64,000 nt of DNA from Candidatus Woesearchaeota archaeon (GTDB lineage: Archaea > Nanobdellota > Nanobdellia > Woesearchaeales > UBA119), in the NCBI GenBank assembly GCA_030156615.1, contig JASGME010000003.1:7574-71573 (forward strand), written 5' to 3'. The first letter of the stretch is position 1. Every line of letters starts with the position of its first letter. Under the pieces are notes generated by a model. It searched no databases and was not told the DNA's origin. It worked only from the letters and a program-made list of their open reading frames with translations. Shown here in pieces: positions 1-35,643 of the stretch. Position numbers and translations under genes: made by a program.

Positions 1-313
1 CTCATTAAATTCATGGGAGGAAAGAGAGATAGAATCCATTGGGAAAATTCAGGGCCTTAAAGAAGGGGTATATAAAGTGAATCTTACTGTTCATTACGAC
101 AATGCATCTTCAAGTATAACTAAAGATGTTAAATTTTCCATTGAGAAGCCAAAAGAAGAAGCGGTTTCTGAAGTCCAAACTGTTCCATTACAAAACAGTA
201 ATACAAAAATCCCGCCATTGGCAATAGCCATGTTTACATTCAGCATCATAATTCTAGTTTATGTTTTCATATTACTTAGAAAACAGAAGGATTTGAATAC
301 AAGCGATTTGTGA
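1..313 (+). CDS. C-terminal fragment of a membrane-anchored surface protein (5' end outside window)
   Basis: Frame is open from position 2 (SLNSWEEREIESIG...) through the 77..313 ORF; beta-rich segment then hydrophobic helix LAIAMFTFSIIILVYVFILL and basic tail. Confidence 0.75.
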   Translation, partial: SLNSWEEREIESIGKIQGLKEGVYKVNLTVHYDNASSSITKDVKFSIEKPKEEAVSEVQTVPLQNSNTKIPPLAIAMFTFSIIILVYVFILLRKQKDLNTSDL

Positions 314-317
314 TAAA

Positions 318-740
318 ATGAAGAAGGTTTATTGGATAATATTGCTCTTTGTATGCCTTTTTTGGTTTTTTGTCTATATAAATCTACCGGATGTTGTTGA
401 AACCTATGCAATAGAGGCATCTGCAAATTTAACTATGAAGAAGGTTGGAATAGATGTTGATGATTCAAGGTTTTCTTTCGGTTCTGTTCCTTTAGGAGGA
501 ACCTCTAAACGATATGCAAACATTTCAAATCTTTATCAGTTTCCGATTCGTGTTGAAATCTATACAAAAGGCAATATTAGTCCTTTCTTGTTTGCTTCTT
601 CAAATGAATTTGATCTGATGCCGAATGAAACCAAAAGGATAAATCTAACTTTTATCCCTCCTTTAGATGGGATAAATGAAACTCAATTGCCTATTTTCTA
701 CGAAGGCGAGGTCATCTTTAAATATATTAAGAAAAATTAA
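318..740 (+). CDS. Small N-terminally anchored extracellular protein, Ig-like beta fold, unknown function
   Basis: N-terminal hydrophobic helix (VYWIILLFVCLFWFFVYI), beta-rich body, several NxS/T sequons. Confidence 0.7.
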   Translation: MKKVYWIILLFVCLFWFFVYINLPDVVETYAIEASANLTMKKVGIDVDDSRFSFGSVPLGGTSKRYANISNLYQFPIRVEIYTKGNISPFLFASSNEFDLMPNETKRINLTFIPPLDGINETQLPIFYEGEVIFKYIKKN

Positions 741-770
741 AGGGAAAGAGGAAAACGAAGAGTTTTTATA

Positions 771-3700
771 TTGCGATTCTATTGGAGAAATATCGTGGTA
801 GAAAGAAAAAAGAGAGCCCCTTTTAAAAGAATTAACAACAGAACTCTTCTTGTTTTGGTAGTTGCCCTTCTCCTGGCAACTTTTTTCTCCCAATTTCTTA
901 TTATAAATTCTCTTTTTGAAAAATCTGCTATTACCGGGCTGTCATTTTCTTCAGGAGAGATAAGGATGTGTGTGCTCTCTGAAGAAACTGCTTATGAATT
1001 TGAACGTCCAAAATCTTATGGGGTTATGAGGAAAGATGAATATGGGAATTATATGCTTAATCTAAGTAAGGTAACGGCTCCATTTCAATCCGAATATAAT
1101 TTCACATATTTAATAAAGTACTCAATCCTTGAAGAAGATTCAATTCTTCTTGGGCAATATGAAGCACCTCAAGGTTCAGCTTTTCTAACCCCCTCAATTC
1201 GTATTGCTGATCTTGAAGATAGAAATTGCGAGTATTCTTTGTATTATTACTCCAATCCAGATGAGGAATGCAGTAATATAGCAAATGTGGAGCATATTAG
1301 TGTAGATAATAATCCTCTACCTCCTATATGGGAAACATATAAAAATGAGAATTCAACAAACTTTAGTCAGTATAATTCTCCGCCGGACTTCTGGACAGCA
1401 ATCACAAACGCTACTCTTTATCATCCTCTTTATGGAAGTTTAAATTTCACTCCCTACACACTAAACTTTGATTCTGCAAACCTTGATGAAGGTACTGTCT
1501 TCTCACAGAATAAGCTTAATTTCTCAGAGAAAACCAGCCATTGCCTTAACTTTCCTGCATATCTTGAATTCAGGAACATTTCAATGTACTATCCTCTTTT
1601 GATGAGAAATGACATAGATTGTATATCTTCTCAAGAATGCTATTTTATTTCCTATAATAAAACAGAAGGAATCTATAGGGCATATATTCCCGGATTTGGC
1701 GAATATGAACTTGTTGAGAATGCAACTGTAATGCTTGAAATTTGGGATGATAATGATGAAAAAGGGGGGATGCTCAATAAAACAGTTGGAGAATCAGTTA
1801 ATTTCTTTGCTAATCTTACTGCAGAGAATGAGACAGTTGTAGCTGACGGAGTTTTCTGTAATTATTCCATATATGATTCTTATGAAAACCAAATCGCTTA
1901 TGGCGATGCTATTTACAATTCCTCCTCTTCATTGTATGAATTCAATCATACTTTTGATTCTAACGGAGTTTACACATGGAAGGTTTTTTGTTCCGCAGAT
2001 GCATTAGATTTAGGCAATGCAACTGCCGTTGATGATATTGAACTGAAATTTAACCCAGTCATATTCTCACATTGGACAGATTTGGATGAATCTGGTGGAA
2101 TTCAGATAAAGTATTCTAAACAGCCAGTTGGTTTTTATTCAGTTTATCTTGATGCTAAAACAAAAGAGCCAATAAATAAAACCACATCTAATTGTACTCT
2201 TTTTTTAAATAATCTTTCTCAGGGACGTTGGGTAGTAGATGAAAACTCAACATCATTGTTGATGGAATATTCAAACGAAACAGAGGAATACGAAACAACA
2301 TTCACTTTTCAATATCCGGGAGAATATCCATATTCAATTGTTTGCCAGGATTATCCATACCATGAGAACGGAACAGGTAGCGGCGTCGTAAGCATAAAAA
2401 ATAGACTTCCTGTTCTAATCGCTAATATATCTAATGTAACTATTCAACAAGGCTTTTCAACAACATTTGTAGATCTTGATAATCATTTTATTGATCCAGA
2501 TGGAGAACTGATAACTTTTTCATCATCATTTAATCCATACCTCAATGTGTTTATTTCTGAAGACAATAGAGTTACAATTATTGCAGGGACAGCATTCGAA
2601 GGAAATACCACACTTACATTTTTTGCTCAGGATTATACTCAAATTAAAGTGCCGTCAAACGAGATTACTGTTTTTGTATTACCTTCACAATACAAGAACG
2701 ACACTGAGCCATCAACTTCATCTTCTGAAGGAGAGCCGGGTTATATTGTTGCATGTAGAGAAAGATGGGTCTGTTCTGATTGGTCTCAATGTTATCCAGA
2801 CAGCTATATGTACAGAACCTGTGTTGATATGAATAATTGTGATACTCTATTAAGAAGACCAAAACTGAAAATGGAGTGTAATTATACTGGAACCTGTTTT
2901 GATGGCATTCAGAATCAGGGTGAAGAAGGAGTAGATTGTGGCGGTCCCTGTCCTCCCTGTCCTACTTGTTTTGATGGCATACAGAATCAGGGTGAAGAAG
3001 GCATAGATTGTGGCGGTCCCTGCTCTCCATGCCCAAGCTGTTTTGATGGCATTCAGAATCAGGGTGAAGAAGGCATAGATTGTGGCGGTCCCTGCCCTCC
3101 TTGTGGCATTCTAGAAGCGCCAATGACATTAAGAACTCCTCTTGAAGATTATCTCACAGAGATATCTATGATATCTGCACTTTTCATGGCTATTATGTTT
3201 TTCCTCTTAAACTTCTTTAATGAGATTAAGAATGCTATAAAAAGATTCTTTTCGTATATCAAAAAAATCGTGAAATCATATAGTTCAAGCGAGATCTCTA
3301 TTGTTGACATAGAGGATTACCTATTGAAGAATCTTGATAAAATACAAAATGAGGTATCTCTTAGTGAAAATAAAAGCCTCCTTGCAGAGCTAACTCGTCT
3401 GTATCGTTTTTTCATAAAGTATGTATTTAATCTTAGACTTGAGTTTACAATTGATGAGCTTAAAGAGTTCTTAAGGACTCAATCTGTTCCATCTTCAAAG
3501 AAAACAATTTATATTGCTTATCTTAAAGCATTAAACGAAAAAGGCTATAGCAATGAAGAAATCAGCAATGAAACAATAGAGAGATTCATCTCGCAATTTA
3601 AAAAAATCATTGAAACAAGCAGGGATCTTATAAGTAGGGCTGATTTATTGAGGCAAGAAGAGGAGATTATAAAGAGGTTGAATTTATTCCCATGGCGCAG

Positions 3701-3989
3701 AAGATTCCTAAACAAAAAACTCAGAATAGAGATAGAATCACACATATACAAGAATCTTGCTTTTATCAGAACTGCAATAGGAAACAAAGATAGCATAGGG
3801 GCTGCAGAGGAATACGAACTTGCTCGCATATTAGTTTATCTTTTACCTAAAAAATACAGAAAAAAATTCATCTCTTCTTTAGCAAATTATCATTCAGAGA
3901 TATCAGAAATGGAAAAAACCGGTAATGCTCAAAAGAGTAATCAAGATAAAAATGAAGCAAAGAATAAAAAGAAAAATAATAAAAGATAG
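771..3989 (+). CDS. Large surface glycoprotein/adhesin with TSP1-like motif, three Cys-rich repeats, second TM helix and about 250-aa cytoplasmic tail
   Basis: 1072-aa ORF (likely start GTG 795 after GGAG); N-terminal TM, Ig-like repeats, CRERWVCSDWSQC, 3x CFDGIQNQGEEG(V/I)DCGGPC, TM ISMISALFMAIMFFLLNFF, then charged helical tail. Confidence 0.85.
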   Translation: MRFYWRNIVVERKKRAPFKRINNRTLLVLVVALLLATFFSQFLIINSLFEKSAITGLSFSSGEIRMCVLSEETAYEFERPKSYGVMRKDEYGNYMLNLSKVTAPFQSEYNFTYLIKYSILEEDSILLGQYEAPQGSAFLTPSIRIADLEDRNCEYSLYYYSNPDEECSNIANVEHISVDNNPLPPIWETYKNENSTNFSQYNSPPDFWTAITNATLYHPLYGSLNFTPYTLNFDSANLDEGTVFSQNKLNFSEKTSHCLNFPAYLEFRNISMYYPLLMRNDIDCISSQECYFISYNKTEGIYRAYIPGFGEYELVENATVMLEIWDDNDEKGGMLNKTVGESVNFFANLTAENETVVADGVFCNYSIYDSYENQIAYGDAIYNSSSSLYEFNHTFDSNGVYTWKVFCSADALDLGNATAVDDIELKFNPVIFSHWTDLDESGGIQIKYSKQPVGFYSVYLDAKTKEPINKTTSNCTLFLNNLSQGRWVVDENSTSLLMEYSNETEEYETTFTFQYPGEYPYSIVCQDYPYHENGTGSGVVSIKNRLPVLIANISNVTIQQGFSTTFVDLDNHFIDPDGELITFSSSFNPYLNVFISEDNRVTIIAGTAFEGNTTLTFFAQDYTQIKVPSNEITVFVLPSQYKNDTEPSTSSSEGEPGYIVACRERWVCSDWSQCYPDSYMYRTCVDMNNCDTLLRRPKLKMECNYTGTCFDGIQNQGEEGVDCGGPCPPCPTCFDGIQNQGEEGIDCGGPCSPCPSCFDGIQNQGEEGIDCGGPCPPCGILEAPMTLRTPLEDYLTEISMISALFMAIMFFLLNFFNEIKNAIKRFFSYIKKIVKSYSSSEISIVDIEDYLLKNLDKIQNEVSLSENKSLLAELTRLYRFFIKYVFNLRLEFTIDELKEFLRTQSVPSSKKTIYIAYLKALNEKGYSNEEISNETIERFISQFKKIIETSRDLISRADLLRQEEEIIKRLNLFPWRRRFLNKKLRIEIESHIYKNLAFIRTAIGNKDSIGAAEEYELARILVYLLPKKYRKKFISSLANYHSEISEMEKTGNAQKSNQDKNEAKNKKKNNKR
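2895..3104 (+). repeat. Three tandem 72-bp in-frame repeats encoding Cys-rich 24-aa units
   Basis: Units start at 2895, 2967, 3039 (tgttttgatggcat.cagaatcagggtgaagaagg..tagattgtggcggtccctg), nearly identical at DNA level. Confidence 0.95.
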
Positions 3990-4013
3990 TTTGGTTTAAA
4001 TATTTTAAAATAT

Positions 4014-4023
4014 TACTGACAAG
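4014..4023 (+). promoter_or_regulatory. TACTGACAAG motif about 11 nt downstream of a TATA-like box, upstream of the cadherin-like gene
   Basis: Same 10-mer occurs at 8883-8892 (minus) upstream of the 216-aa gene at similar TATA spacing. Confidence 0.35.
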
Positions 4024-4050
4024 TAGGATAAATCGAGTAAAGGGATAAGA

Positions 4051-7000
4051 TTGGAAATCGAAAAAGAATACCTGATTATTGCAGGAATCGTTGTTATTTT
4101 GCTTTTAATAGCTTTTACTATAAACTTGTCTATGGAAAATGCTATAACTGGCTTCTACACTTTGCAGGAATGTGAAGCCATGTGTACAGGAAACACTCAA
4201 CCATACATCTCTCCGAGTTTTCCAAGGACATATAACCTTCTTGAAGATGAAGAATATTTGATAGAGATCATCGGGATTGATGCCGAGGGAGATGATATTT
4301 ATTATACAACAGATGAATCAAAGGGAACATGGGATTCATTGTTCCTATATCCAAATGGAACAATGAATATTACGCCTACTAATGATGATGTTGGGAGGAA
4401 GAGCATCTTTATAATTCCTCTCGATATCTGCAGCGATCCGGATGAGTGTGCCCAGACTCCTGATTTAACCACTTCTGCAATTACATTTTACATAGAGAAT
4501 GTTAATGATCTTCCTTTTGTTGTGGAAGCAAATCCAGAAGCAGGTTCTGGTTTTACAGGTGCAGAAAATCATTCTCTTTCCTTCAATGTAACTATTGCTG
4601 ATGATGATTATAGCATTGCAGATGAATACTATAATGAATCTTTTAATTATTCTTTTATTTTGGACGGAGCAATCAATTATTCTGAAACTCTGGTTAAATC
4701 ATTAGAATTCAGCTGGACGTATGAACCTGGTTGGTATGATGCAGGAGAACATAATGTGACATTTTTGGTTTATGATTACGAAGGCGCAAATGCATCATAT
4801 GAATGGATTTTTTATGTAAATAATACGAATCGTATTCCTCTTCAGAATGCAACACTGCCCAATATAACTTGGGAAGAGGATACTAATTCAACACCGCTTC
4901 TTTTAAATTACTACTTCTATGATTTGGATTTAGATGACTTTTTGAATTATTCAGTAAATGTTTCCTCAGGGATTAATTACTCTGTTTATCAGGATGAAGG
5001 CATGAGTTACATTAAATTTATTCCATTAAAAGACTGGTTTGGCAATCAAACAGTTGTAATGAATGTTTCAGACGGCTATGATTTCATTCTCAGCAATCAA
5101 TTTATCCTGAATGTGACAAATGTTAATGATCCTCCAATAATAGAAGAAATTCCAGATTTGTCAACGGCATCTGGCTATCTTTTTGAATATCCGGTTAATG
5201 CCACAGATCCTGATAATGACGCAATTGAGTATGGTCTCTTTGGAAATCCTTCGTGGCTTTCAATTTCAGAAGATGGAATTATAAATGGAACTCCTCCTGT
5301 TGGGGAAGAAGGAACATATATATTCAATGTTAGAGCAATGGACCCTTATTCAGCCTATTCTCTTGAAGAAGTTAAGCTGAATGTATTCTATGATCAGCCT
5401 CCTGTATTTGATGATATTGAGCATATTAACACAACAGAAGGGAATCTAACGAGGATAAATGTTTCTGTCAGGGATCCTGACGGGGATTCTTTTGAAGTAA
5501 TCTCTGATTTTAATTATGCTTTATACAAGTTTAACGATACTTTGTATTATTACAATTTTACCCCGAAGCAAATTGATGTTGGGGAGCATGTAGTGAGGCT
5601 AAATGCTACAGATTCATGGGGCTTGAAATCAACATATTCTTTTAACCTTACAGTTCTTGATAAAAACTTTCCTCCGGAATTAGATGAAGTTGGAGATCAG
5701 GTAGCTAAGATAGGAAAGGCCTATTTTTTTGATATTAATGCTACTGATCCAGATGATGATCCTTTGTACTACGATATTAATCTTAGTTTTGTTTCTATAG
5801 ATCATAGCACAGGCATTATAACCTATTCAGGAAGTTCAGAACATGAAGGGACATATGTCGTTAATGTATCTGTAGAAGATCCTGCTGGAGAGGTAGATTA
5901 TGAACTTATAAACTTCACAGTAACATATAATCGTCCTCCTGACTTAGAGGAGCTTGGCTATTTTGAGATTGAAGAGGATGTTGAATGGATAAAACAGATT
6001 AAGGCAACTGATCCCGATAATGACGAGCTATCTTTTGAGGCAAATGCCAGCATTGGCCTTAACTCATCAACAGGATTAATAAATTATACTCCTCCTTTGC
6101 CCGGTCTTTTCCATTACAATATAACTGTTCATGATGAAGATATGGCTTTTGATTCTTCTTTGTTAATCCTTAATGTTACCCCTTTCAATGATCCTCCGTA
6201 TATTAACACTTCCAACTTAAACATTACAACTATGGAAGAAAACGAGACAATAATATATGTAGAATATTTTGATGAGGAAGGAGCAGAAATAATCCTTTAT
6301 GATAATACTACTGATTTTGACTTCATAAAAATAAACAACACTTTGGGCAAGATTAATTATACGCCAATGGAACAAGGGAATTATTCATATCTATTGATTG
6401 CTTCAGATGGAGATAAAAATGGAACTGCAGTTCTTAATGTTAGCGTTTTGCCTTATAATCATCCTCCTGAGTTATATTCATATTCTCCTTCATTATTTGT
6501 CCCTGCTGTTGAGAGAGATGTATTGAATTTCTCAGTAGTTGTTCATGATCCGGATGGGGATGAACTAACCTTTAGATGGAAGTTTGATGATGTAGAACTT
6601 GACAATAACAAAGAAAATCTTTCTTATACTCTTGGCTGGTATGATGCAGGAACTCATGAATTGAGATTGGAAATAACAGATGCATTCAATCAACCAGCAA
6701 ATTCAACTCCGCTGTCTTGGTACCTTGTTGTAGAGGATCTTAATCGCCCTCCGGTCTATGGCAAACGAGTTTTTGATAACTTCTCTTCAGGAACATTTGA
6801 TAATTGTGTTAATGGAAGTTTGAAGCTTCTTAATGATTCAGACGGATTGTATCCTTTATCTGGTACATATATTACTCCAAGGATAGATTTCTTTGATGAG
6901 GGCTTTATACATTTTGACAGGATTGAAGCTGCTGTAAATCTAACAAGCAAGACCAACATCTCATTTGAATATAAAAAATCATTGAACAATCCTCCGATTG

Positions 7001-8223
7001 AGTTTGCAGATACTATAATGTGGGGAAGTTGGCAGCCCATTCCTCTTACATATCAGGATGCTAATCATTCAACTTTTACCTTCAATGGGAGCAATATTCA
7101 AAATGTAACAGAGAATTCAAAATATTTTCAGTTTAGAATCACCTTAAACACGACTGAAAGGACAGAAACGCCTATCCTGCATAACTTTACATTGTATTAT
7201 AATATTGCAGAGACATCAATTGATCAGGGCTCGTATGGAAATCGTTGGATAACACCAGAAAACTTTTTCATAGAGCATGATTTGGATAATGAGCTTAGCT
7301 ATTCTGCAACATCTGAATATGGTAAGGTTGTTGCATATTTTCCTGAAGGGCTGTCGTATGCCAAGATTGAACCGATAAATGATGAGTTTGTAGGTGAGGA
7401 CTTTATTACTGTCAGCGCTTCTGATGGCATTGCTTCTGTTTCTAGCGATCCTGTTAAGATTAATGTTGTGAAGAAAAATACAACTGGTCTAACAACGCAG
7501 TATCTAATCCAGACAAGAACAGAGACTGTAACGAGGTTTGTGCCAAAAACAGAGGAAGTTCCTGTGTATGAAGAATTTAATCTTTTGGTGCCTCAGAGTA
7601 TGACTCTGTATGAAAACGATACTGTAATTGTACCAATTTTATTAGACAATAGCGGAAACGATACTTTGTATGATGTCCAGCTGTATGCCGAAACAAATAT
7701 GAGCAATGTAGATTTCTACTTTACTAAAGATTACTTCCCTCAGATCCTTGCAGGCACAAAGGAAAACACATCATTGATAGTAACATCGTATAAAACAAGA
7801 GGCAAATATGATATTGTAATAAGAGCGGAATCAAAAGAGCCAGAATTCAATGACACTGCAAAGCTGATGATGGCCACAATAGAAGCAGGCGAGTACAATG
7901 AAACACAGATAAATACAAAGATAGCATCTACTAAAGATTTGATAAACGATAATCAAGAATGTATTGAATTCAGTGAGATGGTTAGGATGGCTGAGAGTTA
8001 TGTTGCCTCCGGTAATGTTGAAAAGGCAAACCAAATCCTTGATTCAGCTGTGGAAAGTTGTAAATATCTTATAACAAATGATCAGATTCTGAGGGAAAGT
8101 CCTATGCCTCAAAGAACCATGCGGGAAGAAAATCCTCTTATGTTCTTCGGGGTTGTTCTAATGATTGCAATCATTGTTCTCTTAGTAATACTATACTACA
8201 CAAAGTTTTCAACTAAGAAGTAA
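4051..8223 (+). CDS. Giant cadherin-like/Ig-like repeat surface protein with N- and C-terminal membrane anchors
   Basis: 1390 aa; repeated (N)xxP linkers (NVNDLP, NVNDPP, NFPP, NRPP, NDPP, NHPP) and DPDND/DPDGD/DPDDD Ca-binding-type motifs about every 90-100 aa; terminal TM FFGVVLMIAIIVLLVILYY. Confidence 0.85.
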   Translation: MEIEKEYLIIAGIVVILLLIAFTINLSMENAITGFYTLQECEAMCTGNTQPYISPSFPRTYNLLEDEEYLIEIIGIDAEGDDIYYTTDESKGTWDSLFLYPNGTMNITPTNDDVGRKSIFIIPLDICSDPDECAQTPDLTTSAITFYIENVNDLPFVVEANPEAGSGFTGAENHSLSFNVTIADDDYSIADEYYNESFNYSFILDGAINYSETLVKSLEFSWTYEPGWYDAGEHNVTFLVYDYEGANASYEWIFYVNNTNRIPLQNATLPNITWEEDTNSTPLLLNYYFYDLDLDDFLNYSVNVSSGINYSVYQDEGMSYIKFIPLKDWFGNQTVVMNVSDGYDFILSNQFILNVTNVNDPPIIEEIPDLSTASGYLFEYPVNATDPDNDAIEYGLFGNPSWLSISEDGIINGTPPVGEEGTYIFNVRAMDPYSAYSLEEVKLNVFYDQPPVFDDIEHINTTEGNLTRINVSVRDPDGDSFEVISDFNYALYKFNDTLYYYNFTPKQIDVGEHVVRLNATDSWGLKSTYSFNLTVLDKNFPPELDEVGDQVAKIGKAYFFDINATDPDDDPLYYDINLSFVSIDHSTGIITYSGSSEHEGTYVVNVSVEDPAGEVDYELINFTVTYNRPPDLEELGYFEIEEDVEWIKQIKATDPDNDELSFEANASIGLNSSTGLINYTPPLPGLFHYNITVHDEDMAFDSSLLILNVTPFNDPPYINTSNLNITTMEENETIIYVEYFDEEGAEIILYDNTTDFDFIKINNTLGKINYTPMEQGNYSYLLIASDGDKNGTAVLNVSVLPYNHPPELYSYSPSLFVPAVERDVLNFSVVVHDPDGDELTFRWKFDDVELDNNKENLSYTLGWYDAGTHELRLEITDAFNQPANSTPLSWYLVVEDLNRPPVYGKRVFDNFSSGTFDNCVNGSLKLLNDSDGLYPLSGTYITPRIDFFDEGFIHFDRIEAAVNLTSKTNISFEYKKSLNNPPIEFADTIMWGSWQPIPLTYQDANHSTFTFNGSNIQNVTENSKYFQFRITLNTTERTETPILHNFTLYYNIAETSIDQGSYGNRWITPENFFIEHDLDNELSYSATSEYGKVVAYFPEGLSYAKIEPINDEFVGEDFITVSASDGIASVSSDPVKINVVKKNTTGLTTQYLIQTRTETVTRFVPKTEEVPVYEEFNLLVPQSMTLYENDTVIVPILLDNSGNDTLYDVQLYAETNMSNVDFYFTKDYFPQILAGTKENTSLIVTSYKTRGKYDIVIRAESKEPEFNDTAKLMMATIEAGEYNETQINTKIASTKDLINDNQECIEFSEMVRMAESYVASGNVEKANQILDSAVESCKYLITNDQILRESPMPQRTMREENPLMFFGVVLMIAIIVLLVILYYTKFSTKK

Positions 8224-8863
8224 TCTCTTTATAGAGTTCATTAATCTCCCTCTTCAGGTTAGAATTTTCCTCTTTTGATTTTCCAACTAAATCAACCAAC
8301 TTGTTATAGCATTTGGCTGCCTGCTTTATATCGCCAGACTCAATGAAGCCGTAAGCTTTTATTATTAATCTCCTTGCTTTTAAAACAATCTTTTGTTCTT
8401 TTCTTTTTCTTCTTTCTTCTAAAAATTTTTTTAATTTAGATGTTTTATCATTTTTTTTCTGAGCAATATTTTCGTTTATTTTCTTTTCTTCGTATTCTTT
8501 TTTTAAGCTCATTACAATTCTCTGAAATTCATCAGAAAGATCATAAAGCGAGGTATTGTCTTTTGAAGGGGCAAACTTCATATTGAAAAGTTTATCGTTG
8601 AATTCCATTACATCCTTCCTTGTATTTTCAGAGATCTTATGTTGTTTTAATCTTTCATCAATCTCTTTAGACGAGAATTCCCCTTTTAATCCTAAATTTT
8701 CAGCGTAAAATCTCCTGACGAGCTGTGTGAAATTAATGAGCCAGTCCTGATTCTTTATCTTTGGAATCCTCCTCCTTAAATACCTAATGTCCTCGAGAAT
8801 TTTCCCTGAATCTTCAAAAGCCCTGTCTTCTTCCATCTTCTTGTTGAATTGTTTTTTTCTCAT
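8213..8863 (-). CDS. Soluble helical protein, apparent paralogue of the cytoplasmic tail of 771..3989
   Basis: 216-aa charged helical ORF, no TM; segment FTQLVRRFYAENLGLKGEFSSKEIDERL aligns by eye with LTRLYRFFIKYVFNLRLEFTIDELKEFL. Confidence 0.75.
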   Translation of the reverse strand: MRKKQFNKKMEEDRAFEDSGKILEDIRYLRRRIPKIKNQDWLINFTQLVRRFYAENLGLKGEFSSKEIDERLKQHKISENTRKDVMEFNDKLFNMKFAPSKDNTSLYDLSDEFQRIVMSLKKEYEEKKINENIAQKKNDKTSKLKKFLEERRKRKEQKIVLKARRLIIKAYGFIESGDIKQAAKCYNKLVDLVGKSKEENSNLKREINELYKEITS

Positions 8864-8882
8864 TTATCAATTCTGTTTTTTC

Positions 8883-8892
8883 CTTGTCAGTA
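8883..8892 (-). promoter_or_regulatory. TACTGACAAG motif (second copy) upstream of the 216-aa gene
   Basis: cttgtcagta on plus strand; TATA-like box at 8903-8910. Confidence 0.35.
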
Positions 8893-8932
8893 GTAAATAA
8901 ACTATTTAATTCTTCCTTTGTATTTCCCGAAT

Positions 8933-9928
8933 ATGGCTGAATCTACGAATGTGATTTCTAAAGAACAGGTTCTCTCTTTCGTTAAACAGCTTGAAAGCGT
9001 AAAGAAGGAGATTTCAAAAGCTGTAATAGGTCAGGCTAAGGTAATTGATATGATTCTTTCTGCCCTTGTTGCAAACGGCAATATCCTCCTTGAAGGAGTT
9101 CCGGGAACCGCCAAAACGCTTATAATGAGAACCGTATCAAAGGTTATGGGTTGTCAGTTCTCAAGGATACAATTTACTCCAGATCTATTGCCTACAGATA
9201 TTATTGGCTTAACAACATATGAAAAAGGAAGAGGCTTCTATGTTTTGAAAGGTCCTATATTTTCAAACTTTGTATTAGCTGATGAAATCAACAGGGCGCC
9301 TCCAAAGGTTCAGTCAGCTCTGCTTGAATCAATGCAGGAAAGACAGGCTACTATAGGCAAGGAAACATTTCCATTGCCTGTTCCATTTTTTGTTCTTGCT
9401 ACAGAAAATCCTTTAGAGAATGTAGGAACATATCCGCTTCCAGAAGCTCAGGTTGATAGGTTTTTGTTTAAGATATTTATCTCTTATCCGGAAATAGACG
9501 AAGAGATTAAGGTCTTAACAACGAATATGAGTATTCAGAAGTTTGAGGCAATTACCCTATCTCCTATCTTGTCTCCTCAGGAGATTATTCAACTGCAGGA
9601 TGCAGCAAAGAAGATTTATGTAGATGAAAGGATAAAAGAATACATTGTAAAGATTGTTGATGCTACGCGAAATCCTTCTAGATACGGTATTAAGTATGGC
9701 AAGTATATTCAATGGGGTGCATCTCCAAGAGGTTCAATAGGAATATATACGGCTTCAATGGCAAATGCACTTATAAATGGCAAGAATTTTGTCACGCCAG
9801 AGAATGTCAAGGCGGTAGCTCCAAATGTTTTAAATCACAGGATTATCCTTAATTATGAAGGTGTATCTGAAAATATTGATTCTTTTGATATTGTTGATGA
9901 AATTTTGAATAAGATTCCTGTGCCCTGA
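8933..9928 (+). CDS. moxR: MoxR-family AAA+ ATPase
   Basis: Walker A GVPGTAKT, RIQFTPDLLPTDI, Walker B ADEINRAPPKVQSALLE, ATENP, DRF, GASPR; ATG at 8933. Confidence 0.95.
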   Translation: MAESTNVISKEQVLSFVKQLESVKKEISKAVIGQAKVIDMILSALVANGNILLEGVPGTAKTLIMRTVSKVMGCQFSRIQFTPDLLPTDIIGLTTYEKGRGFYVLKGPIFSNFVLADEINRAPPKVQSALLESMQERQATIGKETFPLPVPFFVLATENPLENVGTYPLPEAQVDRFLFKIFISYPEIDEEIKVLTTNMSIQKFEAITLSPILSPQEIIQLQDAAKKIYVDERIKEYIVKIVDATRNPSRYGIKYGKYIQWGASPRGSIGIYTASMANALINGKNFVTPENVKAVAPNVLNHRIILNYEGVSENIDSFDIVDEILNKIPVP

Positions 9929-9949
9929 TTATAGCTTTGCGTGATTCCT

Positions 9950-10834
9950 ATGATAAAAGAACTTAATGTTGATCTAACACCAGTCATCGTTAAGATAGAA
10001 TTGGTTGCAAGGCTCGGTGCCAGCGGGATGTTCACGGGGGAATATAGCTCGAGATTTAAAGGACGAGGCCTTGACTTTGAGGGCTATAGAGAATATATGC
10101 CTGAGGACGATGCTCAGAATATTGACTGGAAAGCATCTTTACGAAGTGATGAGGTATTAGTTAAGATTTTCAAGGAGGAAAGAAACATAGATGTAATCTA
10201 TCTCTTTGATGTAAGTGCAAGCATGTGCTTCTCATCAACAGATAAATTAAAATGCGAATATGCTGCAGAGATGATTTCCTCTGTTGCATATGCAAACCTC
10301 TCTGCTGGTGATTCTGTAGGCCTCCTGATGTTTTCAGATGATATAAAGGCTTATTTGCCTCCAAATCAGGGAAGTGCACAGTACTTTAAACTTACGCAAT
10401 TCCTTAAAAATCCAAAGAATTACGATGGCTTGTTTAGTTTTGATAAAGCCATAGATTTTCTTTTAGGTCATTATACTACAAATTCGGTCATTGTTTTAGT
10501 CTCCGACTTTATAGGATTGCATCAGGGATGGGAAAAGAGGATAAGTGCTCTTGCATATAAGAATGAGGTGATTGCAATGATGATCAGGGATCCTAGGGAT
10601 GATTATATGCCTCCTGAAAATATGGAGGTTTTTGTGGGTGACCCTTTTTCACCAAAGCAATTCCTAATCAATCCAGTATGGCTTCATGATGCTTATAATG
10701 GAGAAGCAAAGGTTCAAAAAAACAAGATAAAATCTGAATTAAAGAAGCGAGGGGTGGATTTGTTTGAAACATCAACAGATAAGCCATATGCAACTGCCGT
10801 CCGCAATTTCTTTTTCATGAGAACGAGGAAATAA
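9950..10834 (+). CDS. DUF58 family protein (vWA-like, MoxR partner)
   Basis: GRGLDFEGYREY, DDAQNIDWKASLR, MIDAS-like DVSASM, VLVSDF. Confidence 0.92.
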   Translation: MIKELNVDLTPVIVKIELVARLGASGMFTGEYSSRFKGRGLDFEGYREYMPEDDAQNIDWKASLRSDEVLVKIFKEERNIDVIYLFDVSASMCFSSTDKLKCEYAAEMISSVAYANLSAGDSVGLLMFSDDIKAYLPPNQGSAQYFKLTQFLKNPKNYDGLFSFDKAIDFLLGHYTTNSVIVLVSDFIGLHQGWEKRISALAYKNEVIAMMIRDPRDDYMPPENMEVFVGDPFSPKQFLINPVWLHDAYNGEAKVQKNKIKSELKKRGVDLFETSTDKPYATAVRNFFFMRTRK

Positions 10835-10835
10835 G

Positions 10836-11792
10836 ATGGAGCTTATATTCACCTATCCGGGCTACTTGTGGTTCCTGCTTAGTCTGCCTATCCTTGCTTT
10901 AACGCATTTCTTTGTCCTACGTTTTGTCAAGAACAGAGCAATGAGGTTCGCAAACTTTGAGGTTCTGGAGAGGGTTGTATCCAGTGGAGAACATGGTATA
11001 AGGCATACGCATTTTGTCTCCAAGAACATAGGTCTTCTTATCAACAGACTTATTGTTGTTACTCTTATTGTATTGGCGATATCTGGAATAACTATTCTTT
11101 ACGAAGGAAACATAAGTTCTTTTGACTACGTTATTGCCTTGGATGCTTCAAGCAGTATGCTCGCTGATGATATGAACCCTACTAGATTTGATGTTGCTAA
11201 GGAATCTGCAAAGGAATTCATTGATTCAATAAGTTATGAAAGCAATGTTGGACTTGTGAAGTTTGCAGGTGTTGCAGAAATCGTATCGCCTTTAACATCC
11301 TCCCTTGATGAGCTAAAGGAAGAGATAGATGGTTTAAAAATGTCTCTTACTTCAGGCACGGATTTGACAGAGGCAATCTTTACATCAATAAACCTGTTGC
11401 CTCCTGTTTCAGATAAGAAAGGGGCTGTGATTTTGCTCACTGATGGAAGAAGCACTGTGGGTGAGCCAATCCAGACAGGCATTTCCTATGCATTGAACAA
11501 TAATGTTGTTATTCATACAATTGGGATTGGCACCCCTGAAGGCGGCACTTTTATGGAAGGAGGAATATCACAGCTTGATGAGGAAAGTCTAAAAGAGATT
11601 GCAGAGAAAACAGGAGGAAATTATTATAGGGCAAGTTCTCCAACAGCTCTTTCGAATGCCTTCAAAGAGATTGCTTCTATTGACAAAGGGAAGATAGATG
11701 TTCAGTTGTCCCCTCTGTTTATGTTCTTGGCCCTCGCCCTCCTTTTCATGGAATGGGGCTTGGTAAATACAAAGTATAGAACTTATCCTTGA
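10836..11792 (+). CDS. Membrane-anchored vWA-domain protein (BatA-like)
   Basis: N-terminal FTYPGYLWFLLSLP BatA-type TM region; MIDAS DASSSM...T...LLTDG; C-terminal TM. Confidence 0.92.
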   Translation: MELIFTYPGYLWFLLSLPILALTHFFVLRFVKNRAMRFANFEVLERVVSSGEHGIRHTHFVSKNIGLLINRLIVVTLIVLAISGITILYEGNISSFDYVIALDASSSMLADDMNPTRFDVAKESAKEFIDSISYESNVGLVKFAGVAEIVSPLTSSLDELKEEIDGLKMSLTSGTDLTEAIFTSINLLPPVSDKKGAVILLTDGRSTVGEPIQTGISYALNNNVVIHTIGIGTPEGGTFMEGGISQLDEESLKEIAEKTGGNYYRASSPTALSNAFKEIASIDKGKIDVQLSPLFMFLALALLFMEWGLVNTKYRTYP

Positions 11793-11885
11793 ACTATTTT
11801 TCCTTATTTATTTTGAATGAACTAAAACAGAATCAACTTAAAATTTTTCTTGCTTTATTTCTAAAACGATCTATATCGTCTTGTT

Positions 11886-12317
11886 TCAAAGTTTCAATAA
11901 AATTGAAATTAGTGTAATAAAATCCTCAGTATCGCGAGTCAAATCTTTGACTTCTTGTTCTAATGCTTTTGAATCAACATAGTATTGTTTTTCAATCCTT
12001 TCTTTTTTAGCATTCTTTATAGATTTATTATCTATCTCAAAAAGTTCCTTAAGTAGCCATATTGATATTGTATGATTTTCTGATTTTATCCCAACTCTGA
12101 ACAACAAGCTTAGAAGAGCAAAATACATAGAATAGTAAGCTAGAGCTATTGAATCTTCAAGATTTTTCATTTTTAAAAGAACCTTAGAGGATTTTAATGA
12201 TTTCGTAGCTTTCTCCATATATGCTTGAGATATCTCTTTGCTTGGTTCAACTATCAAAAGTTTTTTCTCCTTCCTCAGCTTTGAGATCAGATTTTCTATG
12301 CTTATGGTATCTCTCAA
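11886..12317 (-). CDS. HEPN-domain protein (partner of MNT); probable 1-nt frameshift near 3' end
   Basis: AYYSMYFALLSLL and GIKSENH motifs; an alternative frame continues NFIETLKQDDIDRFRNKARKILS to a stop at 11833. Confidence 0.8.
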   Translation of the reverse strand: MRDTISIENLISKLRKEKKLLIVEPSKEISQAYMEKATKSLKSSKVLLKMKNLEDSIALAYYSMYFALLSLLFRVGIKSENHTISIWLLKELFEIDNKSIKNAKKERIEKQYYVDSKALEQEVKDLTRDTEDFITLISILLKL

Positions 12318-12837
12318 ATCCTTTGATTATTACATGAGCCTTATCAATCTCTCTGATTAATAAACTATTCCAAGAAAATTTCCCGATTTTTACATTTATT
12401 CTCGTGTCAATATCTTCAACCTCTTTTTTTATCTTTTGACTCAGCGTGTCAATATAGATGTCTATGTCGCTGTCTTTTCTTGGGATATCTTTAGCATATG
12501 AACCAAACAAGACAGCTAATTTCACTCTTTTGTCAGCTCTTATTTGAGAAAAAATTCTCCTTAAAAGCGGATACTTCTTGATAATATGCAAGAGTTTATA
12601 GTGCTCTGTCATCAATATTAGTTCATCTGCCTCGAGAGTTTGCTTCAGGAAATAAACCTTATTCCTGCCTTCCTGTCTAAAGTCAACAACATTAATTCTT
12701 TCAAGCTCTTTTAATTTTCTGAGAACAGTCATCTGGTTTGTATTTAGTTTTCTTGCCAAACTTCTTATGTGTTCAGGAGAGTTATATAATTGTTCTACCA
12801 TATCATAGATGTAATATTTTTGTTCCATATGTAACAA
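12247..12837 (-). CDS. wHTH plus minimal nucleotidyltransferase (MNT), antitoxin-like
   Basis: HIRSLARKLNTNQMTVLRKL HTH; LFGSYAKDIPRKDSDIDIYID polymerase-beta-type motif. Confidence 0.88.
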   Translation of the reverse strand: MLHMEQKYYIYDMVEQLYNSPEHIRSLARKLNTNQMTVLRKLKELERINVVDFRQEGRNKVYFLKQTLEADELILMTEHYKLLHIIKKYPLLRRIFSQIRADKRVKLAVLFGSYAKDIPRKDSDIDIYIDTLSQKIKKEVEDIDTRINVKIGKFSWNSLLIREIDKAHVIIKGFERYHKHRKSDLKAEEGEKTFDS

Positions 12838-33164: not shown

Positions 33165-33239
33165 TAGCGGGGAGTAGATTTGAACTACTGACCTTCGGGT
33201 TATGAGCCCGACGGGCACTCCTGACTGCCCCACCCCGCT
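33165..33239 (-). tRNA. Initiator tRNA-Met (CAT)
   Basis: AGCGGGG...CCCCGCT acceptor (A1:U72), anticodon arm TCGGG-CTCATAA-CCCGA with three G-C pairs, T-loop GTTCAAATC; no encoded CCA. Confidence 0.95.
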
Positions 33240-33320
33240 ATATCTTCGTGAATCTTTAAGCAATATTTAAACCTTTTTATTGCCACAAGAGTTAAATATC
33301 AATTATCTAATCTTCTGGCT

Positions 33321-34334
33321 ATGGATAATGAAAAAAAGGCAAGAGAGAATGTGTTAAAGCCATCCGTGGATCTTGAAGGCTGGCCTGTTGTAAAGGGCTA
33401 TGATTTCAGCAGGCCTTTCTCTGTGAAGCGTTTTGTAGAATCTTTATGCAATACAGGATTTCAAGCGACATCTTTGTATAAGGCTATTCAGTTATATAAA
33501 AAGATGCTCAATGATAAGGCTACAATATTCTTCGGATTTACATCAAACATGGCAAGCTGTGGCATTAGAGATATTATTACTTATCTTGTCAAAAACAAGA
33601 TGGTTCATGTCTTGTCTACAACAGCAGGTGGCGTAGAAGAGGATATTATGAAATGTCATAAGCCTTTTGTTATAGGTGATTATGATGCCCCGGGCGAATA
33701 TCTTAGAGGACATGGTATTAACAGGACAGGCAATCTCTTTATACCAAACGACAGATATCTCTGGTTTGAGCGTTATATGAATTCTTTGCTTGATAGACTT
33801 TATGAGAAACAAAAGAATGAAAAAAAGGTGATAAACAGCAAGGAATTCTGCAGAGAGATGGGCTATCAGTTGGAGCTTATGAGCAAGCAGGATAAAGAGC
33901 TTAAATACACCGAGAGCTTCATTTATCAAGCGTATAAAAACGATATCCCTGTGTTTGGCCTGCCCCTGACAGACGGCTCAATAGGCGACATGATATACTT
34001 CTTTAAGAAGAGGCATAAGGATTTCCAGCTTGATATTGCAGATGATATTGAGATGCTTACCGATATTGCATTAAATGCTGAAAAGACTGGCATAATTGCA
34101 ATAGGTGGTTCTGTGCCTAAACATCAGGTATGCAATGCAAATCTATTTAGAGGAGGTGCTGATTACACTATCTATATAAATTTAGGAATAGAATATGAAG
34201 GCTCTAATGCAGGAGCCAACCCAGATGAAGCAGTATCCTGGGGCAAATTAGTCAAGAAGGAGAATACTGTTAAGGTTTTTGGAGAAGCGAGCATCGTGTT
34301 TCCATTGCTTGTTTTAGGTGTGATTGAAGGATGA
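33321..34334 (+). CDS. dys: Deoxyhypusine synthase
   Basis: [35 protein letters not shown], active-site EAVSWGK. Confidence 0.95.
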
Positions 34335-35494: not shown

Positions 35495-35558
35495 GTTTTG
35501 ATTTTGAGAAAGAGAAAATTTTTATATCACTCTTCTTTCTTCTTTTTTTGATTAGTAT

Positions 35559-35643
35559 GCCGAGGTCGCATAGTCTGGCCATTGCGGAGGATTGCTAATC
35601 CTCTGTCCGAAAGGGCACCAGGGTTCAAATCCCTGCCTCGGCG
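35559..35643 (+). tRNA. tRNA-Ser (GCT)
   Basis: GCCGAGG...CCTCGGC acceptor, anticodon arm GAGGA-TTGCTAA-TCCTC, long variable arm TGTCC-GAAA-GGGCA, GGTTCAAATCC. Confidence 0.96.

What the first reader, a model, noticed from the sequence alone, without database searches (positions are those of the whole stretch)
1..11792. Candidate DPANN attachment apparatus: giant double-anchored adhesins co-located with a MoxR-DUF58-vWA AAA+ module
Seen: four consecutive surface proteins (two of 1072 and 1390 aa, each with N- and C-terminal TM helices), a convergent soluble gene, and, divergent from it, a tightly coupled MoxR/DUF58/membrane-vWA operon. Established: MoxR-DUF58-vWA trios act as chaperone or remodelling machines for partner proteins. 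Inference: here the partners are the adhesins, making an ATP-driven system for assembling, remodelling or signalling through host-contact proteins in a reduced, probably symbiotic archaeon.
Basis: partly seen in the sequence, partly recalled or inferred. Interest (0 to 1): 0.75.

Follow-up and report, generated by a model that had tools for sequence, protein, structure and literature searches.

The report
Archaeal surface-protein cluster tied to MoxR
A tiny Woesearchaeota-type archaeon keeps its large sugar-coated surface proteins next to a MoxR ATPase/DUF58/BatA gene set, and a helical tail domain not in Pfam, related to the tail of bacterial BatD proteins, ties the two together across a whole archaeal class, which gives this poorly understood ATPase module a concrete candidate partner.

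Summary
Four co-directional membrane-anchored surface genes, a convergent soluble 216-aa gene and a tight MoxR-DUF58-BatA operon are all present. Two corrections: the 1072-aa protein is not C-terminally anchored, because a 253-aa cytoplasmic helical tail follows its second TM helix; and the cluster starts about 1.9 kb upstream of the window.

The linkage is not chance. A ~105-aa helical domain (here 'TD') occurs both in that tail and in the 216-aa protein. In 301 genomes of the class, 56 of 60 same-contig TD-MoxR distances are at most 9 kb. TD tracks one MoxR subgroup (52 of 61 genomes, against 3 of 31 for the other). The link survives gene-order changes and fusions.

TD has no Pfam family and no PDB fold match. 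It aligns with the post-membrane tails of Bacteroidales and Leptospira BatD-type proteins (hhalign 80%, E 1.4e-5).

So this is a DPANN variant of the Bat-type MoxR operon, with greatly enlarged, glycosylated, Ig-repeat BatD-like partners. ATP-driven assembly or remodelling through TD is inferred. A host-adhesion role is untested. A related MoxR-vWA-Ig-like neighbourhood in archaea was predicted in 2015. Verdict: new variant of a known kind, moderate interest.

The parts
2..313 (+). o1, 3' part: the C-terminal 103 aa of a ~400-aa protein with a signal peptide, a beta-rich body and a C-terminal TM helix. It starts upstream of the window at contig C25:~6687.
   Evidence: Orthologues of 371-438 aa lie upstream of o2/o3 in 18 of 38 MoxR loci. 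No Pfam family.
318..740 (+). o2: a 140-aa N-anchored small beta-sandwich protein.
   Evidence: Weak Cep192_D4/ASH and choice-of-anchor-D hits, all below cut-off. Orthologues in 14 of 38 loci.
771..3989 (+). o3: a 1072-aa protein with BatD-like architecture. N-terminal TM helix (aa 23-47), beta-sandwich string (aa ~65-640), Cys-rich module and repeats (aa 660-780), TM helix (aa 794-819), cytoplasmic helical tail (aa 820-1072).
   Evidence: AF2 model, mean pLDDT 77. Foldseek finds generic multi-Ig folds. 28 sequons in the ectodomain against 2 in the tail. Homologues lie next to MoxR in other families.
2891..3104 (+). Three tandem 72-bp repeats that encode CFDGIQNQGEEG(V/I)DCGGPCPPCP modules, the membrane-proximal stalk of o3.
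   Evidence: Tandem Repeats Finder: period 72, 3.0 copies, 88% matches. The Cys columns are invariant in the o3 alignment A6.
3312..3626 (+). TD domain copy 1, in the cytoplasmic tail of o3 (aa ~849-952), about 30 residues after the TM helix.
   Evidence: jackhmmer and HMM searches. Alignments A1 and A2. hhalign against BatD-type tails: 80%, E 1.4e-5.
4051..8223 (+). o4: a 1390-aa Ig/cadherin/PKD-repeat protein anchored at both ends (TM helices at aa ~8-30 and ~1363-1385), with 67 N-glycosylation sequons.
   Evidence: Full-length orthologues lie 9 bp to 3.4 kb from MoxR in 28 of 38 loci. Fused with o3 in G212.
8213..8863 (-). o5: a 216-aa soluble all-helical protein. TD copy 2 (aa ~20-122; nt 8498-8809), then a long helix and a C-terminal helical hairpin.
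   Evidence: AF2 pLDDT 94.3. No PDB fold match. No Pfam family. A TD-bearing gene lies within ~400 bp of MoxR in most loci.
8864..8917 (.). Divergent intergenic region between o5 and MoxR, with A/T-rich TATA-like boxes facing both ways (TATTTAA at 8903-8909, ~25 nt before ATG 8933).
   Evidence: Read directly from the sequence. Promoter function is inferred.
8918..9928 (+). MoxR-family AAA+ ATPase. The likely true start is ATG 8933.
   Evidence: AAA_3 E 2.7e-57 and AAA_lid_2. Walker A and B present. Orthologues in 61 of 301 class genomes at E<=1e-98.
9941..10834 (+). DUF58 protein: a cytoplasmic VWA-fold protein with a DxSxS motif.
   Evidence: PF01882 E 1.9e-39. DVSAS at aa 90.
10836..11792 (+). 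BatA-type membrane VWA protein. 3 TM helices, with the VWA-MIDAS domain predicted to face outside.
   Evidence: PF07584, VWA and NF047508 BatA hits. DASSS motif. Basic TM1-TM2 loop. The homologue BB0173 was shown experimentally to expose its VWA domain to the periplasm (PMC5700661).

Best explanation
The region is one functional gene cluster. It is the Nanoarchaeia (Woesearchaeota-type DPANN) version of a Bat-type MoxR system.

Components. The cytoplasmic side holds the MoxR AAA+ ATPase and its VWA-fold partner DUF58. The membrane holds BatA, whose VWA-MIDAS domain faces outward. The dedicated partners are glycosylated, membrane-anchored beta-sandwich proteins (o1-o4).

The connecting element. 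The link is a ~105-aa helical cytoplasmic domain, TD. It sits just inside the membrane on the tail of o3, and again on the soluble protein o5 encoded head-to-head with MoxR. TD is the archaeal counterpart of the post-membrane tail of bacterial BatD-type proteins. That gives o3 a BatD-like architecture (ectodomain, TM helix, TD tail) with a greatly enlarged ectodomain.

Proposed mechanism. MoxR-DUF58 engages TD on the inside. BatA's MIDAS domain and the o3/o4 ectodomains form a complex on the outside. ATP hydrolysis drives assembly, insertion or a change of state of that surface complex. o5 acts as a soluble competitor, adaptor or regulator of the same TD-binding site.

Shown: the gene content, the predicted topology, the homology of the o3 tail, o5 and BatD-type tails, and the conserved linkage and fusions.

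Inferred: every physical contact, the direction of action, and the biological role (envelope building versus host attachment).
For: 1. Domain identities and motifs are confirmed.

2. One TD family. jackhmmer started from the o3 tail retrieves only o3 tails and the genes next to MoxR among ~300 locus ORFs. In the organism's own 903 ORFs, TD occurs only in o3 and o5. The two AF2 models show the same helix pattern.

3. Linkage. In 301 class genomes, TD is present in 65. Of 60 TD-MoxR distances measured on the same contig, 56 are at most 9,026 bp. 52 of 61 genomes with the close MoxR subgroup carry TD, against 3 of 31 with the other subgroup. Among 38 inspected MoxR loci, 34 have TD, 28 an o4-like gene and 19 an o3-ectodomain gene.

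4. Linkage survives rearrangement:
- all genes co-directional with overlapping ends in G011;
- o3 and o4 fused in G212, with TD lying between two TM helices;
- TD moved into an N-terminal cytoplasmic loop of o4 in G124 and G254;
- TD on its own 2-TM protein in G082 and G240;
- a small N-TM+TD protein after BatA in family f73.

5. Link to Bat operons. Bacterial operons read MoxR-DUF58-(DUF4381 or BatD-family)-VWA-VWA-TPR-BatD. The TD HMM hits the post-TM tails of Bacteroidales BatD and third-gene proteins. hhalign of TD against those tails gives probability 80%, E 1.4e-5; the reversed control gives E 0.42. The best genome-wide DUF4381 hits in G329 and G185 fall on small N-TM+TD proteins.

6. 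The VWA domain of the BatA homologue BB0173 is periplasmic by experiment.
Against: - No physical interaction, expression data or phenotype is available.
- TD matches DUF4381 only below Pfam's cut-off (23.3 bits against 27.2). hhalign against four proteobacterial DUF4381 sequences is not significant (E 0.11).
- The BatD ectodomain family (PF13584) and the BatD tail family DUF7939 do not hit the cluster.
- There is no BatB and no TPR BatC/E.
- Some genomes have TD without a detectable MoxR (10 of 65). One of them, G038, keeps o3 and o5 beside a truncated MoxR, with no DUF58 or BatA.
- Nine genomes of the close MoxR subgroup lack a detectable TD, and four have TD 28-359 kb away from MoxR.
- Bacterial bat mutants gave no clear phenotype in Leptospira, so the function of the core module is itself unknown.
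Confidence: 0.6

Rival explanations
1. o3 and o4 are host-contact adhesins of an ectosymbiotic archaeon. The MoxR module assembles them, remodels them or signals through them during attachment to a host cell.
For: The genome is 0.86 Mb and 96% complete. Close homologues carry Woesearchaeota or Nanoarchaeia names. The ectodomains contain Ig, cadherin-like and PKD repeats. The outward-facing MIDAS VWA domain is an integrin-type ligand-binding fold. The surface proteins evolve faster than the ATPase module: 61-69% against 84% identity within the genus.
Against: No host is known and no binding data exist. o4 is a conserved end-to-end orthologue across families, not a variable repertoire. The fold matches are generic and include S-layer proteins. 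The homologous Bat module occurs in free-living bacteria. The cluster is in only about a fifth of the class genomes sampled.
Confidence: 0.3
2. An envelope-building role. o1-o4 are structural components of the S-layer or pseudo-periplasm. The MoxR module is their assembly or quality-control chaperone, with no role in host contact.
For: Full-length conservation of o4. Heavy glycosylation sequon load. Foldseek matches to the Sap S-layer protein and an archaeal S-layer protein. Makarova et al. 2015 predicted a MoxR + vWA + Ig-like S-layer-protein membrane complex in euryarchaea (PMC5898192).
Against: The cluster is absent from most genomes of the class, which is unexpected for an essential wall component. 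Anchoring at both ends is atypical for known S-layer proteins (my own knowledge).
Confidence: 0.3
3. A secretion or membrane-remodelling system of the kind predicted for arCOG01314 (DUF4350) neighbourhoods. In this reading the cluster exports other proteins and is not itself the end product.
For: It shares components with that predicted system: a COG0714 MoxR ATPase, a vWA protein and Ig-like membrane proteins.
Against: No DUF4350 protein, no polytopic channel-like protein and no ABC component were found in the cluster.
Confidence: 0.08
4. Co-location without shared function: synteny inherited from a common ancestor.
For: The closest genomes (same genus and family) are simply collinear.
Against: The linkage persists across orders despite changes of gene order and orientation and despite domain shuffling. 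o3-o4 and TD-o4 fusions exist. TD and the MoxR subgroup co-occur in the same genomes.
Confidence: 0.05
5. A MoxR-vWA 'ternary' conflict or defence system.
For: A weak bpMoxR Pfam hit, 63.7 bits.
Against: The AAA_3 hit is far stronger, 192.7 bits. There is no VMAP, beta-propeller or effector domain. PADLOC finds nothing except a 20.9-bit partial hit.
Confidence: 0.02

Closest known systems
Bat (Bacteroides aerotolerance) type MoxR operons: MoxR - DUF58 - DUF4381 or BatD-family protein - BatA - BatB - BatC(TPR) - BatD (Bacteroides, Legionella, Leptospira, Borrelia bb0170-bb0176)
   Same: [quoted passage not shown] There is a partner protein with ectodomain + TM helix + helical cytoplasmic tail. 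The tail is homologous to TD (hhalign 80%, E 1.4e-5). The BatA VWA domain faces outside.
   Different: There is no BatB and no TPR BatC/E. The BatD ecto 'DUF11-like' domain is not detectable. The partner is enlarged to 1072 aa with Cys-rich repeats. The cluster adds a 1390-aa protein anchored at both ends, several small N-anchored beta-sandwich proteins, and a soluble TD paralogue. I saw no soluble TD protein in the nine bacterial Bat operons inspected. The function of Bat operons is itself unknown.
Predicted archaeal secretion/membrane-remodelling complex around arCOG01314 (DUF4350) with a COG0714 MoxR ATPase, a vWA protein and Ig-like S-layer-type membrane proteins (Makarova, Galperin and Koonin 2015, PMC5898192)
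   Same: The same general idea and gene classes: a MoxR-type ATPase plus a vWA protein encoded with membrane-anchored Ig-like surface proteins in archaea.
   Different: No DUF4350/arCOG01314 protein is present here. TD, the o3/o4 families and the DPANN distribution are not part of that description, as far as the text I read shows.
Bifidobacterium PFNA cluster (pkb2 - fn3 - MoxR - duf58 - tgm)
   Same: A MoxR-DUF58 pair encoded beside a large glycosylated FN3-type surface protein proposed to mediate adhesion (PMC8430577).
   Different: PFNA has a Ser/Thr kinase and a transglutaminase and lacks BatA. Neither a kinase nor a transglutaminase was found here.
Pfam DUF4381 (PF14316): a small N-terminal TM helix plus a helical domain, the third gene of proteobacterial Bat operons
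   Same: The same operon context and the same TM-then-helical-domain layout. Small N-TM+TD proteins in relatives are the best genome-wide DUF4381 hits and cover nearly the whole model.
   Different: The scores stay below the curated cut-off (23.3 against 27.2 bits). o5 and the o3 tail themselves do not hit. hhalign is not significant.

Membership tests
MoxR AAA+ ATPase (Pfam AAA_3, MRP-type) | AAA_3 domain over the curated cut-off, AAA lid, and Walker A and B motifs | tested here: met
   AAA_3 scores 192.7 bits (cut-off 27) and AAA_lid_2 63.7 bits. GVPGTAKT and FVLADE are present.
DUF58 (PF01882) | DUF58 domain over the cut-off | tested here: met
   135.5 bits against a cut-off of 23.4. DVSAS MIDAS-like motif.
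BatA | BatA N-terminal membrane domain plus a VWA domain with MIDAS, and 3 TM helices with the VWA domain outside | tested here: met
   PF07584 scores 31.4 bits (cut-off 25.9) and VWA 67 bits. DASSS motif and TM helices at ~5-27, 62-88 and 290-310. The orientation is inferred from the positive-inside rule and from BB0173.
Bat operon (Bacteroides/Legionella type) | A second VWA protein (BatB) and TPR proteins (BatC/BatE) | tested here: not met
   There is no second VWA gene and no TPR family hit in window 1-12400. o5 ends in a helical hairpin of unclear type.
BatD (PF13584) | Extracytoplasmic BatD 'DUF11-like' domain | tested here: not met
   No hit on o1-o4. The six-frame search of 12 genomes does not land in the cluster.
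BatD-type proteins | Architecture of signal or N-anchor, ectodomain, TM helix and helical cytoplasmic tail with the (F/L)T..E(L/I)...L ... (K/R)(F/Y)A motif | tested here: met
   The TD HMM hits the post-TM tails of 5 Bacteroidales BatD and third-gene proteins at 11-18 bits. hhalign gives 80%, E 1.4e-5; the reversed control gives E 0.42.
DUF4381 (PF14316) | Score over the gathering threshold (27.2 bits) | tested here: inconclusive
   o5 and o3 do not hit. Relatives' N-TM+TD proteins score 23.3 and 17.4 bits with near full-length coverage. hhalign gives E 0.11.
DUF7939 (PF25607, BatD tail of the Legionella type) | A family match on the tail | tested here: not met
   No hit in 22 genomes, the organism's own included.
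arCOG01314 / DUF4350 system (Makarova 2015) | A membrane-anchored DUF4350 protein in the neighbourhood | tested here: not met
   No DUF4350 hit on any cluster protein.
Adhesin | Demonstrated binding to a host or substrate ligand | not testable with these tools
   Only Ig, cadherin-like and PKD repeats and an extracellular topology are shown.
MoxR-vWA ternary conflict systems (bpMoxR/VMAP) | A VMAP or beta-propeller partner and effector domains | tested here: not met
   No such domains. PADLOC is negative.

The most novel reading that the evidence does not exclude
The cluster is an ATP-powered, integrin-like transmembrane clutch. A cytoplasmic MoxR-DUF58 motor grips the TD tails of giant surface proteins, with soluble o5 acting as a competing regulator. 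This switches the conformation or clustering of an outer complex built from the o3/o4 ectodomains and the outward MIDAS domain of BatA, and so turns attachment of the DPANN cell to its host on and off. By extension, the same TD/BatD-tail coupling would explain what bacterial Bat operons do.
Probability: 0.12. Interest if true: 0.85.

Novelty: new variant of a known kind. Interest (0 to 1): 0.55.

Why it matters
MoxR-DUF58-BatA (Bat) operons are widespread in bacteria and archaea, yet after 25 years they have no demonstrated client or mechanism.

This cluster offers concrete, testable candidates for both. One is a defined cytoplasmic domain (TD, the counterpart of the BatD-type tail) that travels with the ATPase through fusions and rearrangements. 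The other is a defined set of surface proteins on the far side of the membrane.

For DPANN biology, it marks a conserved surface-protein machine in about a fifth of Nanoarchaeia genomes. That makes it a candidate for envelope construction or host attachment.

TD has at least 1074 sequence clusters in public data and no Pfam family, so it could be defined as a new domain family.

Tried and rejected
- BLASTP of the o3 tail against o5 found nothing (E 1.0). The relationship only appears with profiles.
- Pfam and NCBIfam gave no family for o1, o2 (weak hits only), o5, the 73-aa and 217-aa upstream proteins, or the long soluble TD proteins.
- A PDB sequence search with the TD profile gave only low-complexity Plasmodium hits.
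- Foldseek of the o5 model found nothing below E 0.7.
- A six-frame search with PF14316 in 41 relatives did not land on o5 or o3.
- PF13584 and PF25607 did not land in the cluster.
- hhalign of TD against four DUF4381 sequences was not significant.
- The word-indexed homologue search with A3 returned only 8 proteins.
The taxonomic range outside the class therefore stays unknown.
- A type IV pilin reading of the 73-aa and 217-aa proteins was rejected. The residue before the hydrophobic helix is not a conserved G or A.
- A defence-system reading was rejected.
Full report
OBSERVATION

The window is G000:C25:7574-71573 of a 0.86-Mb genome that is 96% complete. An o5 homologue with 84% identity is named 'Candidatus Woesearchaeota archaeon' by its source. 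More distant TD proteins are named Woesearchaeota or Nanoarchaeia.

- o1, 2-313: the 3' end of a ~400-aa gene that starts upstream of the window.
- o2, 318-740.
- o3, 771-3989: 1072 aa.
- o4, 4051-8223: 1390 aa.
- o5, 8213-8863, minus strand: 216 aa, no TM helix, 42% charged residues.
- MoxR, 8918-9928.
- DUF58, 9941-10834.
- BatA, 10836-11792.

Pfam and NCBIfam confirm the following.
- MoxR: AAA_3 (E 2.7e-57) plus the AAA lid.
- DUF58: E 1.9e-39.
- BatA: the N-terminal BatA domain plus a VWA domain.
- o4: Big_9, He_PIG and PKD.

The Walker A and B motifs and both DxSxS MIDAS motifs are intact.

Hydropathy gives N-terminal TM helices in o2, o3 and o4, C-terminal TM helices in o1 and o4, and three TM helices in BatA.

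Two corrections to the observation:
- The second TM helix of o3 is at residues 794-819 and is followed by a 253-aa charged helical tail. o3 is a type I-like membrane protein with a substantial cytoplasmic domain, not a protein anchored at its C-terminus.
- The cluster starts upstream of the window with a 73-aa and a 217-aa N-anchored protein.

N-glycosylation sequons support the topology. o3 has 28 in its ectodomain and 2 in its tail. o4 has 67 against 17 expected. MoxR, DUF58 and BatA have one each.

THE CONNECTING ELEMENT: TD

Pairwise BLAST sees no similarity between the o3 tail and o5. Two profile searches do.
- phmmer with the o3 tail hits the o5 orthologues of two sister genomes (1e-5 and 9e-7) and the gene next to MoxR in three other families.
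- jackhmmer started from the o3 tail converges on o3 tails and MoxR-adjacent genes only, among ~300 locus ORFs.

I call the shared ~105-aa core 'TD' (alignments A1 and A2). Its motif is L..L....R.Ff...f.i.yEFT..EL...L, then about 20 residues, then L....(Y/F)(s/a). E67 of o5 is nearly invariant.

In the organism's own 903 ORFs, TD occurs only in o3 and o5.

Structure predictions:
- AlphaFold2 models o5 with mean pLDDT 94.3 as an all-helical protein.
- A full-length o3 model (mean pLDDT 77) shows an N-terminal TM helix, a beta-sandwich string at residues 65-640 with pLDDT ~90, a small Cys module, low-confidence Cys repeats, a TM helix, and a helical tail with the same order of helices as o5.
- Foldseek finds no PDB match for o5 (best E 0.78). 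For the o3 ectodomain it finds only generic multi-Ig proteins: alpha-2-macroglobulin and complement MG domains, S-layer proteins and cadherins.

No Pfam family covers TD.

A search of 1.84 billion representative proteins finds 1074 clusters at E<=1e-3 and 287 at E<=1e-10. In the best 149, TD is either at the N-terminus of a soluble protein (95 cases) or about 40 residues after a TM helix (54 cases). The membrane forms are either large proteins with an N-terminal TM helix and an ectodomain, or small proteins made of an N-terminal TM helix plus TD.

IS THE LINKAGE REAL?

In 41 genomes of the same order, o3 homologues lie 0.7-8 kb from MoxR on the same contig, not only in the same family but in at least six other families.

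ORF maps of 20-kb regions reveal a conserved cluster of about ten genes:
- an ~80-aa TM protein;
- a ~216-aa Cys-bearing protein with an N-terminal TM helix;
- o1, o2, o3 and o4;
- a TD gene;
- MoxR, DUF58 and BatA.

In G011 all of these are co-directional with overlapping stops and starts.

A survey of 301 genomes drawn evenly from the class gives these numbers.
- TD is in 65 genomes and MoxR (E<=1e-40) is in 92.
- Of 60 TD-MoxR distances measured on a shared contig, 56 are at most 9,026 bp. For a ~1-Mb genome a random pair would fall that close about 2% of the time.
- The four exceptions are 28-359 kb apart.
- TD tracks one MoxR subgroup: 52 of 61 genomes with E<=1e-98, against 3 of 31 genomes that have only the more distant MoxR type.
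- That more distant type sits in a different, haloarchaeal-like Bat operon with DUF7502 and DUF7408 proteins.

Twenty further loci from other orders show that the association survives extensive shuffling.
- G212: o3 and o4 fused into one 2255-aa ORF, with TD between two internal TM helices.
- G124 and G254: TD moved into an N-terminal cytoplasmic loop of o4.
- G082 and G240: TD on a separate 2-TM protein between o3 and o4.
- Family f73: o3-o4-MoxR-DUF58-BatA co-directional, followed by a small protein made of an N-terminal TM helix plus TD.
- G107 and G129: only two TM-TD proteins beside the MoxR operon.

Over 38 MoxR loci, 34 have TD, 28 have an o4-like gene, 19 an o3 ectodomain, 18 o1 and 14 o2. 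Several loci are cut by contig ends, so these counts are lower bounds.

WHAT IT RESEMBLES

Annotated bacterial records show the canonical Bat operons.
- Legionella, Azospirillum, Rhizobium, Fulvitalea and Persicobacter: MoxR-DUF58-DUF4381-VWA-VWA-(TPR)-BatD.
- Bacteroides, Prevotella, Parabacteroides and Leptospira: the third gene is a 289-369-aa 'BatD family' or hypothetical protein made of an ectodomain, a TM helix and a tail.

Evidence that TD is related to BatD-type tails:
- The TD HMM hits the post-TM tails of the Bacteroidales BatD and third-gene proteins at 11-18 bits, in the expected place. The same HMM hits nothing else in the archaeon's own proteome.
- Profile-profile comparison of TD (A2) with six such tails (A5) gives probability 80%, E 1.4e-5 over 78 columns.
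- A larger TD alignment gives 73%, E 3e-5. The reversed control gives E 0.4.

The relationship to DUF4381 itself is weaker.
- The best genome-wide PF14316 hits in G329 and G185 fall exactly on the small N-TM+TD proteins next to BatA and cover nearly the whole model. They score 22-23 bits against a cut-off of 27.2.
- hhalign against four proteobacterial DUF4381 sequences is not significant (E 0.11).

The BatD ecto-domain (PF13584) and the Legionella-type tail family DUF7939 are not found in the cluster.

My reading is that o3 has BatD-like architecture and a homologous tail, attached to an unrelated or unrecognisably diverged, much larger ectodomain.

PUBLISHED CONTEXT

- The BatA homologue BB0173 of Borrelia has three TM helices and a periplasmic VWA domain (PMC5700661).
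- Bat proteins were proposed to form a membrane complex, but Leptospira bat mutants showed no oxidative-stress or morphological phenotype (PMC3557215).
- The Bifidobacterium PFNA cluster places MoxR-DUF58 beside a large FN3 surface protein (PMC8430577).
- Makarova, Galperin and Koonin (2015) predicted an archaeal secretion or membrane-remodelling complex of a COG0714 MoxR ATPase, a vWA protein, DUF4350 and Ig-like S-layer-type membrane proteins (PMC5898192).

So the general theme is known as a prediction. I found no description of TD, of the o3/o4 families or of this DPANN cluster.

Earlier notes of this scan report the same MoxR/surface-protein theme in other DPANN genomes. I treat them as leads, not as evidence.

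MECHANISM

Shown:
- the parts;
- the predicted sides of the membrane they occupy;
- the homology of the o3 tail, o5 and BatD-type tails;
- linkage that persists through rearrangements and fusions.

Inferred:
- MoxR and DUF58 in the cytoplasm engage TD.
- BatA's outward MIDAS domain and the o3/o4 ectodomains form the outer half of one complex.
- ATP hydrolysis assembles or switches that complex.
- Soluble o5, encoded head-to-head with MoxR across a 54-bp region with TATA-like boxes facing both ways, competes for or adapts the same site.

The data do not decide whether the biological role is envelope construction or host attachment. Conservation of o4 end to end, and the presence of Bat operons in free-living bacteria, argue against a purely symbiosis-specific device. 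The Ig/cadherin repeats, the faster evolution of the surface parts and the DPANN lifestyle keep adhesion plausible.

LIMITS

- No multimer prediction was possible.
- The taxonomy of most TD proteins is unknown.
- The TD-DUF4381 link is not proven.
- My ORF calls use a simple longest-ORF rule.

VERDICT

Functional linkage is well supported. The adhesion and remodelling reading is plausible but untested. This is a new variant of a known kind (a Bat-type MoxR system). Its most useful product is a tail domain absent from Pfam.

Noticed in passing
window 771-4200; own genome C11:37012-38019, C24:43935-44660, C24:59668-63615, C25:5948-6601: Six surface proteins of this genome, including o3, o4 and the 217-aa protein, carry the motif ITG[FYL] 5-15 residues after their N-terminal TM helix (SAITGLSF, NAITGFYT, TGITGYVT, EGITGFFY ...). 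About 0.4 such cases are expected by chance. Orthologues in other families keep a (T/S)G at the same place. This may be a processing or sorting signal.
   Followed up: partly
window 2749-3104: Just outside the membrane, o3 carries a W..CS.WS.C...R.C.D.N.C module (TSP1-like spacing), followed by three near-identical 72-bp repeats that encode CFDGIQNQGEEGxDCGGPCPPCP. The Cys columns are invariant across 24 homologues. The repeat number probably varies between relatives.
   Followed up: partly
L059 (G212:C1:451975-458742): o3 and o4 are fused into a single 2255-aa ORF with four TM helices, and TD lies in the internal cytoplasmic loop. This is a natural fusion of the two large surface proteins.
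   Followed up: partly
L040 (G038:C2:~33200-37300): This genome keeps o3 and an o5-like gene. Its MoxR is only 255 aa, and no DUF58 or BatA follows it. The module may be decaying or replaced.
   Followed up: no
L048, L049, L050 (G019, G026, G032): A second, different MoxR-DUF58 operon type exists in the same order. It has 600-830-aa BatA-like proteins (DUF7406, DUF7407 and DUF7408), a DUF7502 membrane protein and a ~170-aa coiled-coil TM protein. It lacks TD and the o3/o4 genes.
   Followed up: partly
L046 13222-13599 and L047 3774-4799: Extra genes are inserted inside distant MoxR operons. One is a DUF1844 protein between MoxR and DUF58. The other is a membrane-anchored FKBP-type peptidyl-prolyl isomerase between DUF58 and BatA. 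The FKBP would fit an outward protein-folding role.
   Followed up: no
window 771 and 4051: Both large genes appear to start with TTG, and there is no in-frame ATG before the TM helix. The o4 orthologue of a sister genome (G002) does the same, so the non-ATG start looks conserved for o4.
   Followed up: no
window 11886-12837 (minus strand): Directly after BatA lie two overlapping small genes (143 and 196 aa) that look like a HEPN / nucleotidyltransferase-HTH pair, a toxin-antitoxin-like arrangement. They are not part of the conserved cluster.
   Followed up: no
L031 1638-3041 (C25:1638-3041, upstream of the window): There are four consecutive small (91-130 aa) N-anchored proteins with 4-12 cysteines each on the minus strand, of unknown family.
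   Followed up: no
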